A stretch of DNA of 1,207 nucleotides from Naegleria gruberi. Lineage: Eukaryota. The stretch is taken from NCBI GenBank assembly GCA_000004985.1, contig GG739502.1. One strand, 5' to 3'. The notes under the pieces were generated by a model. The model made no database searches, was not told the origin of the DNA, and saw only the letters and a list, made by a program, of their open reading frames with translations. Both the position numbers and the translations under genes were made by a program. Shown here one piece after another: positions 1 to 1,207 of this stretch (position 1 is its first letter; each line of letters opens with the position of its first letter).

Positions 1-148
1 ATCATCATATAATTGGTCGACACACAGAAATTTAAATAAACAAAATTAACAAGAATAAAAGCAAATCCTACATAGAGTTGGAGAACGGGAAATGAAATTC
101 CCAAATTAAATTGAGAAACACAATCACAATAATTCATACTATCAAAAT

Positions 149-193
149 GAATTGAACCCTGGTCGCCGTATTCTACCACTAAACCATCGACGC
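149..193 (-). other. tRNA-like relic, either a degenerate tRNA pseudogene or a SINE-head fragment. It has A-box- and B-box-like motifs but no complete cloverleaf.
   Basis: The minus strand reads GCGTCGATGGTTTAGTGGTAGAATACGGCGACCAGGGTTCAATTC. TGGTTTAGTGG (forward 176-186) fits the Pol III A-box TRGCNNAGTGG with one mismatch, and it sits in a D-arm-like GTTT/AGTGGTA/GAAT context. GGGTTCAATTC (forward 149-159) resembles the B-box/T-loop GGTTCGANTCC. The spacing between the boxes is about 17 nt too short. No anticodon stem or closing acceptor stem can be paired. Confidence 0.3.
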
Positions 194-194
194 A

Positions 195-261
195 TTATGA
201 CATACTCTTACCAACGTGATTTAAAATTATCAAAAATAATATTTGATAAAAAAAATAGACG
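195..261 (+). promoter_or_regulatory. AT-rich 5' flank, the presumed 5' UTR or core promoter of the ankyrin-kinase gene.
   Basis: It includes an A-rich run (aaaaaaaatagacg) directly before the ATG at 262 and an in-frame TAG at 256-258. I could not recognise any specific promoter element with confidence. Confidence 0.2.
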
Positions 262-471
262 ATGGCGACCTGTAAAAACATTTGGCTACAAGCAGCAGAG
301 GCTATAAAACAAGGAGACCTGTCAATCTTACAAAGTCTCGACCTTGTATCTGTCATTAACAATAATTATGATGAAGCAACGTTACTATCAATAGCTTGTG
401 GTCAAAACAAATGTTGTCCTGAAATTATCCAATTATTATTGGCAGTTCCGACCATTGATTTGAACAAAAAT
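262..471 (+). CDS. Exon 1 (70 codons) of an ankyrin-repeat protein kinase gene. It starts at the ATG at 262 and ends ...TIDLNKN.
   Basis: The ATG at 262 is the first in-frame ATG after an in-frame TAG at 256-258. The track ORF 262..489 is this exon read through into the intron (NVSMLL*). The translation contains a partial cap-like repeat (AAEAIKQGDLSILQSLDLVSVINNN) and a full ankyrin repeat (YDEATLLSIACGQNKCCPEIIQLLLAVPTIDLNKN), which matches the TPLHxAxxxGHxxxVxxLLxxGAdxN consensus. The exon ends exactly at a consensus 5' splice site (AAT|GTAAGC). Confidence 0.7.
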
Positions 472-511
472 GTAAGCATGTTATTGTAATAAGCGAATAA
501 TATTTAAATAG
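472..511 (+). other. Spliceosomal micro-intron 1, 40 nt, GTAAGC...AAATAG, phase 0.
   Basis: It starts with the GTAAGC donor and ends with a TAG acceptor. It carries in-frame stops (TAA at 473-475 in the exon-1 frame, TAG at 509-511 in the exon-2 frame). Its length is not a multiple of 3, so removing it shifts the frame from that of exon 1 to that of exon 2. The junction rebuilds an uninterrupted ankyrin repeat (...DLNKN|SPLAIACFKG...). Alternative acceptors at 492-493 or 526-527 run straight into stops. Confidence 0.65.
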
Positions 512-598
512 TCACCGCTGGCAATAGCTTGTTTCAAAGGTAACAAAGAAGCTGTAAAGCTGCTATTGGATCAATCATTAATTGATATTCACAGGAGG
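512..598 (+). CDS. Exon 2 (29 codons): SPLAIACFKGNKEAVKLLLDQSLIDIHRR, a textbook ankyrin repeat.
   Basis: The frame is open from the acceptor at 511/512 to a consensus donor at AGG|GTACGT (598/599). The sequence fits ankyrin consensus positions (PLxxAxxxGxxxxVxLLLxxxxxDxx). Read without splicing, this frame hits TGA TAG at 635-640. Confidence 0.7.
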
Positions 599-640
599 GT
601 ACGTTCAATTAATTTACAGAAATACTCATTTCAATGATAG
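599..640 (+). other. Spliceosomal micro-intron 2, 42 nt, GTACGT...TGATAG, phase 0.
   Basis: It has a GTACGT donor, a TACTCAT branch-like motif at 623-629 and an ATAG acceptor. It contains tandem in-frame stops TGA TAG (635-640) immediately before a long open frame. Its length is a multiple of 3, so only excising it, not reading through it, gives a continuous protein. The alternative acceptor at 618-619 (21-nt intron) leaves the stops in frame. Confidence 0.62.
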
Positions 641-1207
641 AACGAAGAAGAAAGAACACCACTTCAGATAGCAAAATCAGAGAAAAACATTGAAATTATT
701 AAGTTATTACTTGGTAAAATATTTATTGATGACCTTAAAGATATCGACAAGTATACCACATCCAATGATGGTGAAATGATATTAATAGGATCAGAAAACG
801 ATCCTTCCATTTCGAAAAGTATATCTGAATATTTGAAGAATCGATCATTGGTTTATGGAAATGATCAGTATAATACTTTTTCAAAAGAGGATATTCCATT
901 GAAAGAAACATTCAATTCGTTAGAAGATTACATTCTTAGCCATTTGATTTCAAATTCTGTTGCTCCAAAATATCAATATAAACCGAGAGTAACACCTGTA
1001 CTAGACGATCCAGTTATTGACAGATCAGAGAGAACACTTTTTACCAGAAGTGGCGGTAATGGAGTAGTTTCAAAGGTTTCACTAAATGGAAAACCAGTTG
1101 CTGAGAAGCTTTCAACTGCTTTCATAGATTTAGAGCTCTACAAAAAAATCAGTGAACATCCTGGTATAGTTGAAATATTACATCATTATGAATCTGAGGA
1201 TGGCATA
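641..1207 (+). CDS. Exon 3 (189 codons, 3' partial, continues beyond the window). It encodes a third ankyrin repeat, then a linker, then the start of a protein-kinase catalytic domain.
   Basis: The frame is open with no stop from 641 to the window edge. The track does not list it, presumably because it has no stop in the window. NEEERTPLQIAKSEKNIEIIKLLLGKIFIDDL is an ankyrin repeat. Residues encoded from about 1028 read ERTLFTRSGGNGVVSKVSLNGKPVAEKLSTAFIDLELYKKISEHPGIVEIL. This matches kinase subdomains I-IV: a Gly-rich loop xGxxGxV, the beta3 Lys in VAEK (VAIK-like), an alphaC Glu in DLELY, and HPGIV (HPNIV-like). Confidence 0.72.

What the first reader, a model, noticed from the sequence alone, without database searches (positions are those of the whole stretch)
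1028..1207. Kinase N-lobe with non-canonical motifs fused downstream of ankyrin repeats (ILK-like or TKL-like architecture)
The Gly-rich loop reads TRSGGNGVV, so the first Gly of GxGxxG is replaced. The beta3 motif is VAEK, not VAIK. The spacing from the alphaC Glu (DLELY) to HPGIV is short. Ankyrin repeats N-terminal to a kinase domain occur in integrin-linked kinase and in several protist and fungal TKL kinases. Whether this is an active kinase or a pseudokinase cannot be judged, because the catalytic loop, the DFG motif and the APE motif lie beyond the window.
Basis: partly seen in the sequence, partly recalled or inferred. Interest (0 to 1): 0.55.

Follow-up and report, generated by a model that had tools for sequence, protein, structure and literature searches.

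The report
Ankyrin-repeat protein kinase gene from Naegleria
The window holds the 5' part of an ordinary spliced gene from a Naegleria gruberi-like amoeba that encodes ankyrin repeats, a linker and the start of a divergent Naegleria-specific protein kinase domain; it is not an ILK relative.

Summary
Nt 1028-1207 encode (T)RSGGNGVV, VAEK, DLELY and HPGIV in the open frame of a three-exon gene (262-471, 512-598, 641-1207+). Exons 1-3 encode 3-4 ankyrin repeats (Pfam Ank_2, E 1.5e-23).

The 60-residue kinase-like stretch matches no kinase model or solved kinase on its own. A search of 1.84 billion proteins found two real relatives, both Naegleria gruberi proteins with complete Pkinase domains (E 2e-34 and 3e-32). 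The window aligns to their linker and N-lobe at 41-45% identity. One relative, XP_002671040.1, also carries N-terminal ankyrin repeats.

Window 157-859 is 100% identical to an ENA metagenome contig from a sample that also holds a 97% copy of that N. gruberi gene. The source is therefore a Naegleria.

VAEK is a family trait. Loss of the first loop glycine is specific to this copy. The short segment is beta3-to-alphaC, not alphaC-to-beta4. The paralogs keep the catalytic residues (HND/HYD, DFD, APE), so the family looks active.

ILK scores only 10 bits against the family profile. The best solved matches are STE20-type kinases, with CAMK and TKL close behind, so the kinase group is unresolved. 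This copy's catalytic core lies beyond the window and I could not recover it. This is a new member of a known kind, of low interest.

The parts
262..471 (+). Exon 1. ATG at 262, aa 1-70. Holds an N-terminal capping half-repeat and ankyrin repeat 1 (aa 35-70, nt 364-471).
   Evidence: ORF from ATG 262. It ends at the GTAAGC donor. The Pfam Ank_2 match over aa 42-125 runs through the junction. The N-terminus resembles that of N. gruberi P0005.
472..511 (+). Intron 1. 40 nt, GTAAGC...TAG, phase 0, 23% GC.
   Evidence: The reading frame switches from frame 1 to frame 2, with stops in between. GT-AG ends. Removing it gives a continuous ankyrin match. This is inferred; no transcript data were available.
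512..598 (+). Exon 2. 87 nt, aa 71-99, ankyrin repeat 2 (SPLAIACFKGNKEAVKLLLDQSLIDIHRR).
   Evidence: Pfam Ank at aa 69-100, E 2.5e-11.
599..640 (+). Intron 2. 42 nt, GTACGT...TAG, phase 0, 26% GC.
   Evidence: In-frame stops lie between 599 and 640 in the coding frame. GT-AG ends. The alternative acceptor at 618-619 would give an in-frame TGA. This is inferred.
641..1207 (+). Exon 3. aa 100-288, open at the window end. Holds ankyrin repeat 3 (653-718), the linker, and the kinase N-lobe.
   Evidence: 189 codons without a stop. tblastn against paralog locus L001 gives E 1.9e-12 over aa 154-288.
719..1027 (+). Linker between the ankyrin repeats and the kinase domain (aa 126-228). It contains the family-conserved helix FNSLEDYILSHLIS (911-952).
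   Evidence: F190, S192 and Y196 are invariant with P0004 and P0005. AF2 predicts a helix at aa 193-204. No Pfam family matches.
1028..1207 (+). Kinase N-lobe, subdomains I-IV (beta1 to beta4), aa 229-288. This is the finding itself.
   Evidence: BLASTP to the kinase domains of P0005 (E 6e-13) and P0004 (E 4e-7). phmmer library hits. The AF2 secondary structure is strand-strand-strand-helix, as in an N-lobe.
1043..1069 (+). Gly-rich loop TRSGGNGVV. The first Gly of GxGxxG is replaced (T234 or R235, depending on gap placement). The second and third Gly (G237, G240) and the following Val are kept.
   Evidence: Alignments. The paralogs read GKGGYGTV and GNGANGAV.
1097..1108 (+). Beta3 motif VAEK, with the ATP-anchoring Lys K255 (1106-1108).
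   Evidence: Invariant V252, A253, E254 and K255 in all three family members. The motif aligns with the AxK column of 30 other kinases.
1127..1141 (+). AlphaC helix core DLELY. The candidate salt-bridge acid is D262 (1127-1129) or E264 (1133-1135).
   Evidence: HMMER alignment to STK10 and MAFFT alignment to 30 kinases put the alphaC Glu column on D262. E264 is invariant in the family. AF2 predicts a helix at aa 260-269.
1157..1186 (+). HPGIVEILHH. The alphaC-beta4 turn and beta4 strand, ending in the family-specific LHH.
   Evidence: It aligns with the HPNIV column of other kinases. G274, V276, L279, H280 and H281 are invariant in the family.

Best explanation
The window is the promoter-proximal 5' part of a nuclear gene of a Naegleria gruberi-like heterolobosean amoeba.

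The gene has three exons, of which the last is cut by the window end. It encodes:
- 3-4 ankyrin repeats;
- a linker of about 100 aa with a conserved helix;
- a eukaryotic protein kinase domain, of which only beta1 to beta4 fall inside the window.

It is a third, apparently unannotated paralog of a small, fast-evolving kinase family known so far only from Naegleria. The other known members are XP_002671040.1 and XP_002674560.1.

The family traits are VAEK in beta3, a very short beta3-alphaC connection, an EIEIL-like alphaC and LHH in beta4. In the complete paralogs there is also a non-RD catalytic loop (H-N/Y-D-I-K-P-x-N), DFD instead of DFG, and a normal APE.

Inferred mechanism: the ankyrin repeats dock the protein on a partner or substrate, or on its own kinase domain. 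The kinase domain then transfers phosphate to Ser/Thr, as the DIKPxN-type loop suggests. As in other non-RD kinases, this would happen without activation-loop phosphorylation.

This copy has lost the first loop glycine and may have Asp in place of the alphaC Glu. It may therefore bind ATP less well than its paralogs. I put about 0.55 on it being active and about 0.3 on it being weakly active or a pseudokinase.

Shown here: the gene structure by sequence logic, the ankyrin repeats, homology to full kinases, and the source organism. Inferred: that the missing C-terminal part exists, catalytic activity, and the role of the repeats.
For: - Gene model and ankyrin repeats.
- Homology: P0001 at E 2.3e-8 and P0002 at E 2e-5 in a library of 1.84 billion proteins.
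- Both relatives are Pkinase proteins (E 2.3e-34 and 2.9e-32). They carry HNDIKPPN/HYDIKPNN, DFD and APE.
- The 61 aa of the finding align inside those kinase domains.
- P0005 (N. gruberi XP_002671040.1) has Ank_2 at aa 27-95 plus Pkinase at aa 204-451, so it has the same architecture.
- Similarity extends through the linker.
- Window 157-859 is 100% identical to ENA contig ERZ929261 k127_39157. The same assembly holds a 97% identical copy of N. gruberi P0005.
- GC of about 32-34% and 40-42 nt GT-AG introns fit a eukaryotic nuclear gene.
- AF2 on aa 188-288 with a 37-sequence alignment gives pLDDT 81.8 and N-lobe-like beta-beta-beta-alpha.
Against: - The fragment alone matches no kinase HMM and no PDB kinase.
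- The catalytic loop, DFG and APE of this particular gene were not seen. The window ends at beta4, and the only other contig found (703 nt) is shorter than the window.
- Foldseek hits to kinases are not significant (E >= 0.23). The model was also built from an alignment made of kinases, so it is not independent evidence.
- The introns are inferred without RNA evidence.
- Only three family members are known, so 'family trait' rests on a thin sample.
- This copy could be a truncated or decaying paralog.
Confidence: 0.85

Rival explanations
1. It is an ILK-type scaffold: ankyrin repeats fused to a catalytically dead pseudokinase that works only by protein binding.
For: The N-to-C order of ankyrin repeats then kinase-like domain is the same as in ILK. 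This copy has lost the first loop Gly, and its alphaC acid may be Asp.
Against: - ILK scores 10 bits (E 3.6) against the family HMM, against 68.8 bits for STK10.
- hhalign aligns only the generic C-lobe.
- ILK is not in the top 60 of 703 PDB hits.
- Both paralogs keep the beta3 Lys, catalytic Asp and Asn, DFD Asp and APE.
- The window keeps K255 and two of the three loop glycines.
Confidence: 0.07
2. It is a member of the TKL group (an LRRK/Roco, RIPK, MLK or IRAK-like ankyrin kinase), as in Dictyostelium, Entamoeba or Rhizophagus ankyrin-TKLs.
For: The best PDB hits of P0004 alone are Roco4 and IRAK4. RIPK1, DLK and MLK1 appear among the profile hits. The top Foldseek kinase hits are TAK1 and IRAK4, though not significant. 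There is a weak ANK_LRRK2 Pfam hit (E 0.0014, below cutoff).
Against: - Pfam Pkinase outscores PK_Tyr_Ser-Thr in both paralogs (119 vs 63 bits, and 113 vs 92 bits).
- The best matches of the family profile are STE20-type STK10, SLK and MAP2K5 (about 5e-18 to 1e-17), followed by CDPK and CaMKK2.
- All groups lie within about 13 bits of each other, so no group assignment is justified.
Confidence: 0.2
3. The kinase-like motifs are a coincidence, or a decayed remnant. The gene is only an ankyrin-repeat protein with an unrelated or pseudogenised C-terminal tail.
For: There is no Pfam or PDB kinase hit for the fragment itself. The contig ends inside the domain. The protein is absent from all annotated protein sets searched.
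Against: - Library-wide E-values of 2.3e-8 and 2e-5 to two full kinases, aligned in register with their N-lobes and linkers.
- 189 codons stay open in an AT-rich genome, where stops are frequent in the other frames.
- Key residues (G237, G240, V242, K255, E264, H280-H281) are conserved.
Confidence: 0.05

Closest known systems
Naegleria gruberi XP_002671040.1 (EFC38296.1, NAEGRDRAFT_73958, 'predicted protein', 474 aa; P0005), with its 97% identical metagenomic copy P0002
   Same: - It has the same architecture: N-terminal ankyrin repeats, a linker with an FxSLxEY helix, then a kinase domain.
- It is 45% identical over the N-lobe.
- It shares VAEK, an EIEIM/DLELY alphaC, EH(D/P)G(V/I)V, LHHY and DGI.
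   Different: - It has a canonical GNGANG loop.
- It is 2 residues longer between beta3 and alphaC.
- Its annotated ankyrin region is shorter, and it has an intron after the last repeat.
- Overall identity to the window protein is only about 33%.
- Its full catalytic core is known; the window's is not.
Naegleria gruberi XP_002674560.1 (EFC41816.1, 'protein kinase', 452 aa; P0001, with longer form P0004)
   Same: It is the best library hit (E 2.3e-8, 41% identity over 101 aa). It shares the linker helix, VAEK, EIEIL, LHH, and a non-RD HND loop with DFD and APE.
   Different: - No ankyrin repeats are detected in the annotated model. The model possibly lacks 5' exons.
- It has a canonical GKGGYG loop.
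- It has a long insert in the C-lobe.
STE20-type kinases STK10/LOK and SLK (PDB 4bc6, 2j51)
   Same: They are the best solved matches to the family profile (E about 5e-18 for STK10, 2e-16 for SLK). They share the EIEIL alphaC motif, HP.IV, and GT..YMAPE.
   Different: - Only generic kinase-level similarity.
- They have HRD and DFG.
- Their beta3-alphaC segment is 16 residues.
- They have no ankyrin repeats.
- CAMK and TKL kinases score nearly as well.
Integrin-linked kinase (ILK, PDB 3kmu/3f6q)
   Same: The domain order is the same: ankyrin repeats N-terminal to a kinase-fold domain.
   Different: - There is no specific sequence relationship (10 bits).
- ILK is a pseudokinase without the catalytic residues, which the Naegleria paralogs keep.
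- ILK has no long linker like the one here.
Ankyrin-repeat kinases of other protists, for example the expanded Nek kinases with ankyrin repeats in Giardia (PMC3218828; title and abstract only, seen)
   Same: They show lineage-specific expansion of kinases combined with ankyrin repeats in an excavate protist. The combination is therefore common and recurrent.
   Different: They belong to a different kinase family (Nek), and in many of them the repeats lie C-terminal to the kinase domain (this point is from my own knowledge). I did not test homology beyond the generic kinase fold.

Membership tests
Eukaryotic protein kinase superfamily (Pfam PF00069 Pkinase) | Significant match to the kinase domain model | tested here: inconclusive
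   The window fragment alone gives no hit at E<=10; only about 60 of about 260 domain residues are present. Its two homologs score 119 and 113 bits against a cutoff of 31.7. The fragment aligns in register with their domain starts.
Eukaryotic protein kinase superfamily (Pfam PF00069 Pkinase) | Gly-rich loop GxGxxG | tested here: inconclusive
   The window reads x-S-G-G-N-G. The first Gly is replaced by T or R; the second and third Gly and the following Val are present.
Eukaryotic protein kinase superfamily (Pfam PF00069 Pkinase) | Beta3 Lys (VAIK) and alphaC acidic partner | tested here: met
   K255 in VAEK is invariant. Both candidate alphaC positions are acidic (D262, E264). Which one pairs with the Lys is unresolved.
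Eukaryotic protein kinase superfamily (Pfam PF00069 Pkinase) | Catalytic loop HRD...N, DFG and APE | not testable with these tools
   These lie beyond nt 1207. The only other contig holding this locus is shorter than the window. The paralogs have HND/HYD-IKPxN, DFD and APE.
Ankyrin repeat (Pfam PF12796/PF00023) | Significant match to ankyrin repeat models, tandem repeats of about 30-33 aa | tested here: met
   Ank_2 E 1.5e-23 (83.6 bits, cutoff 27.3) over aa 42-125. Ank E 2.5e-11. Ank_4 E 1.5e-10.
Naegleria ankyrin-kinase paralog family (XP_002671040.1 / XP_002674560.1) | Specific similarity over linker and N-lobe: FxS(L/W)xEY helix, VAEK, short beta3-alphaC, (E/D)(I/L)E(I/L), LHH | tested here: met
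   These are the only real hits in 1.84 billion proteins. There are 38 invariant columns across the three proteins. tblastn gives E 1.9e-12. Outside this family, the next relative of P0005 is only 29% identical.
Integrin-linked kinase (ILK) | Specific sequence similarity of the kinase-like domain to ILK | tested here: not met
   ILK scores 10.0 bits (E 3.6) against the family HMM. hhalign aligns the C-lobe only. ILK is absent from the top 60 PDB hits. I verified the ILK sequence used against PDB 3kmu and 3f6q.
Integrin-linked kinase (ILK) | Pseudokinase: loss of the catalytic Asp and degenerate DFG | not testable with these tools
   This region is not in the window. The paralogs retain the catalytic Asp, Asn and DFD Asp, which argues against it.
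TKL kinase group | Closest similarity to TKL families, with PK_Tyr_Ser-Thr (PF07714) scoring at least as high as Pkinase | tested here: inconclusive
   PF00069 outscores PF07714 in both paralogs. The profile's best PDB hits are STE20-type, but TKL members (DLK, RIPK1, Roco4, IRAK4) are within about 13 bits. I did not build a phylogeny.

The most novel reading that the evidence does not exclude
The window protein and its two N. gruberi relatives may define an undescribed kinase family found so far only in Naegleria. Its traits are an unusually truncated beta3-alphaC segment (7-11 residues against about 16-19), VAEK, a non-RD HxD loop and DFD, coupled to ankyrin repeats through a conserved helix. 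The window copy, missing from the protein sets searched, has lost the first loop Gly and possibly changed the alphaC Glu to Asp. It could therefore be a paralog on its way to becoming a pseudokinase regulator of its active siblings.
Probability: 0.25. Interest if true: 0.3.

Novelty: new member of a known kind. Interest (0 to 1): 0.15.

Why it matters
It matters little beyond annotation. It adds an apparently unannotated paralog to a small, very divergent ankyrin-kinase family of Naegleria, and it suggests that the N. gruberi gene models of this family are incomplete. For kinase specialists, the family's very short beta3-alphaC link with a non-RD/DFD catalytic core is a minor curiosity. Ankyrin-plus-kinase proteins are common in protists. 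Nothing here opens a long-standing question.

Tried and rejected
- Pfam on the 80-aa fragment found no kinase hit.
- PDB sequence search with the fragment returned only chance hits: uL24c and an endopeptidase.
- The word-indexed protein search with aa 124-288 found nothing.
- The same search with alignment A1 returned only P0001.
- IMG/VR viral contigs and JGI metagenome contigs held no relatives. This argues against a giant-virus origin and means there is no longer contig in those collections.
- Rfam and ARAGORN found no RNA gene.
- The promoter/terminator scan was at chance level and is not applicable to a eukaryote.
- P0003 (an Ig-repeat protein, E 5.6e-5) is rejected as a repeat-inflated spurious hit.
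- AF2 on the full 288 aa with 3 sequences gave pLDDT 37 and is unusable.
- Looking up P0001 on contigs found no record.
- Looking up the 75-aa exon-1 ORF gave a 703-nt contig identical to the window but shorter, so no downstream extension was possible.
- A literature search for the ENA accessions and for a Naegleria ankyrin-kinase family found nothing specific.
- The minus-strand ORFs are short (<=58 aa) and have no support.

Full report
**What is in the window**

The 1207-nt window is AT-rich (27-39% GC). It has no long ORF on the minus strand. On the plus strand, an ATG at 262 opens a frame that ends in stops after nt 471. The next frame is open from 512 to 598, and again from 641 to the window end.

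Both interruptions begin with GT and end with AG: GTAAGC...TAG (472-511, 40 nt) and GTACGT...TAG (599-640, 42 nt). Both are phase 0, and both are more AT-rich than the exons.

Splicing them out gives a 288-aa open protein. Residues 42-125 match Pfam Ank_2 at E 1.5e-23, and the match runs across both junctions. This is the evidence that the introns are real; I had no RNA data. A 19-nt direct repeat (420-438 and 691-709) is simply the PEIIQLLL and IEIIKLLL helices of two ankyrin repeats.

**Checking the observation**

- ERTLF at 1028-1042
- TRSGGNGVV at 1043-1069
- VAEK at 1097-1108
- DLELY at 1127-1141
- HPGIV at 1157-1171

Taken alone, the stretch is not demonstrably a kinase. Pfam gives no kinase hit even at E<=10. 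phmmer against all PDB sequences, which include thousands of kinases, returns only chance hits. The word-indexed protein search, IMG/VR and JGI metagenomes also gave nothing.

**Homologs settle it**

An exhaustive phmmer of aa 124-288 against 1.84 billion representative proteins found three hits. One of them, P0003, is an Ig-repeat protein and is spurious. The other two have complete kinase domains:
- P0001: E 2.3e-8, 41% identity, Pkinase E 2.3e-34.
- P0002: E 2e-5, 44% identity, Pkinase E 2.9e-32.

Cluster look-up identifies P0001 as N. gruberi XP_002674560.1 ('protein kinase'). P0002 is a metagenomic copy, 97% identical, of N. gruberi XP_002671040.1 (P0005, 474 aa).

The 61 aa of the finding alone align to P0005 residues 207-260 (E 6e-13) and to P0004 residues 186-239 (E 4e-7). 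Both ranges lie at the start of the Pfam-defined kinase domains. Similarity also runs back through the linker, including a conserved FxS(L/W)xEY helix.

P0005 carries N-terminal ankyrin repeats as well (Ank_2 E 1.4e-5, aa 27-95). The ankyrin-linker-kinase architecture is therefore shared.

**Source organism**

The 75-aa exon-1 ORF is recorded on ENA contig ERZ929261 k127_39157 (run ERR1078381, project PRJEB11402). That contig is 100% identical to window 157-859. The same assembly holds L001, the 97% copy of the N. gruberi gene. The window therefore comes from a Naegleria gruberi-like amoeba.

That contig is shorter than the window. The window protein was found in none of the protein collections searched. 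I could not recover the downstream part of the gene.

**The motifs in the light of the family**

Three alignments agree on the following points.

- *Gly-rich loop.* The first Gly is lost in this copy only. The paralogs read GKGGYGTV and GNGANGAV. The second and third Gly and the Val are kept.
- *VAEK.* It is invariant in all three proteins, so it is a family signature. The Lys is present.
- *AlphaC.* HMMER alignment of the family profile to STK10 and a MAFFT alignment with 30 other kinases place the canonical alphaC Glu on the first acid of EIEIL. That position is D262 in the window. Which acid pairs with the Lys is unresolved.
- *What is actually short.* It is not alphaC-to-beta4, which differs from canon by one residue either way. 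It is beta3-Lys-to-alphaC: 7-9 residues in the window, 9-11 in the paralogs and 16 in STK10. This is a gap of about 13 columns against ordinary kinases.

The complete paralogs have HNDIKPPN or HYDIKPNN, which retain the catalytic Asp, Lys and Asn but are non-RD. They also have DFD, which keeps the metal-binding Asp with Gly replaced by Asp, and GTL.YMAPE. On residues, the family looks catalytically competent and Ser/Thr-type.

**Structure**

AF2 on the whole 288 aa with three sequences was useless (pLDDT 37).

With aa 188-288 and a 37-sequence alignment, the model reached pLDDT 81.8. It shows a linker helix (aa 193-204), three strands (225-232, 240-247, 250-256) and a short helix (260-269). 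This is an N-lobe-like order with a short alphaC.

Foldseek against the PDB returned mostly kinases (TAK1, IRAK4, HCK, MET, PAK1, CDK2). All were at E >= 0.23. This is consistent with a kinase N-lobe but not significant. It is also not independent evidence, because the alignment consisted of kinases.

**Comparison with known families**

*ILK.* I verified the human ILK sequence against PDB 3kmu and 3f6q. It scores 10 bits (E 3.6) against the family HMM. By hhalign it aligns only over the generic C-lobe. It is not among the top 60 of 703 PDB hits. The ILK likeness is domain order only.

*Kinase group.* The family profile's best solved matches are STK10 (about 5e-18), MAP2K5 (1e-17) and SLK (2e-16). 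Next come CDPK, CaMKK2, DLK, ASK1, PhK and RIPK1. Singly, P0004 prefers Roco4 and IRAK4, while P0005 prefers CDPK and ASK1. Pkinase outscores PK_Tyr_Ser-Thr in both. No group can be assigned, and TKL is not favoured.

*Family size.* Outside its own near-identical copy, the next relative of P0005 found is only 29% identical. This is a small and very divergent family. I found no paper on it.

**Verdict**

The evidence is homology, not the motifs themselves. The ILK label is wrong, and the TKL label is unproven.

The feature is an ordinary, apparently unannotated member of a Naegleria ankyrin-kinase family. Its own catalytic status remains open, because the rest of the gene could not be retrieved.

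Noticed in passing
window 146-195, minus strand: GCGTCGATGGTTTAGTGGTAGAATACGGCGACCAGGGTTCAATTC reads by eye like the acceptor/D-arm half of a tRNA joined directly to a T arm, with the anticodon arm missing. It lies about 70 nt upstream of the ATG. ARAGORN at default settings and Rfam at E<=10 find nothing. Relaxed ARAGORN gives only a poor tRNA-Ile call at c[137,230]. It is probably a decayed tRNA relic.
   Followed up: partly
L001 183-299 (ENA ERZ929261 k127_375723): An ankyrin-like exon (RKGEAPFEIAKTNNFTKIMRLLIAHHLIK, followed by a GTTTGT...TAG intron) lies just upstream of the kinase exon of the N. gruberi XP_002671040.1 orthologue. It is absent from that reference protein. The reference gene model probably misses an ankyrin exon.
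   Followed up: partly
window 472-511 and 599-640: Both introns are very short (40 and 42 nt) and phase 0. Both fall in the loops between successive ankyrin repeats, so exon 2 (87 nt) encodes almost exactly one repeat. This pattern is suggestive of repeat gain by exon duplication.
   Followed up: no
window 420-438 and 691-709: A 19-nt direct repeat at 84% identity. It corresponds to the second-helix motifs PEIIQLLL and IEIIKLLL of ankyrin repeats 1 and 3.
   Followed up: yes
P0001 vs P0004 (N. gruberi XP_002674560.1 and an ENA variant): The ENA member of the cluster is 24 aa longer at the N-terminus. Its start (…NHIEIIQLLNTSVDI) looks like the tail of an ankyrin repeat. The annotated N. gruberi 'protein kinase' may therefore also lack upstream ankyrin exons.
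   Followed up: no
L001 1871-2632: A second open reading frame (254 aa, running off the contig end) lies downstream of the paralogous kinase gene. I did not examine it.
   Followed up: no
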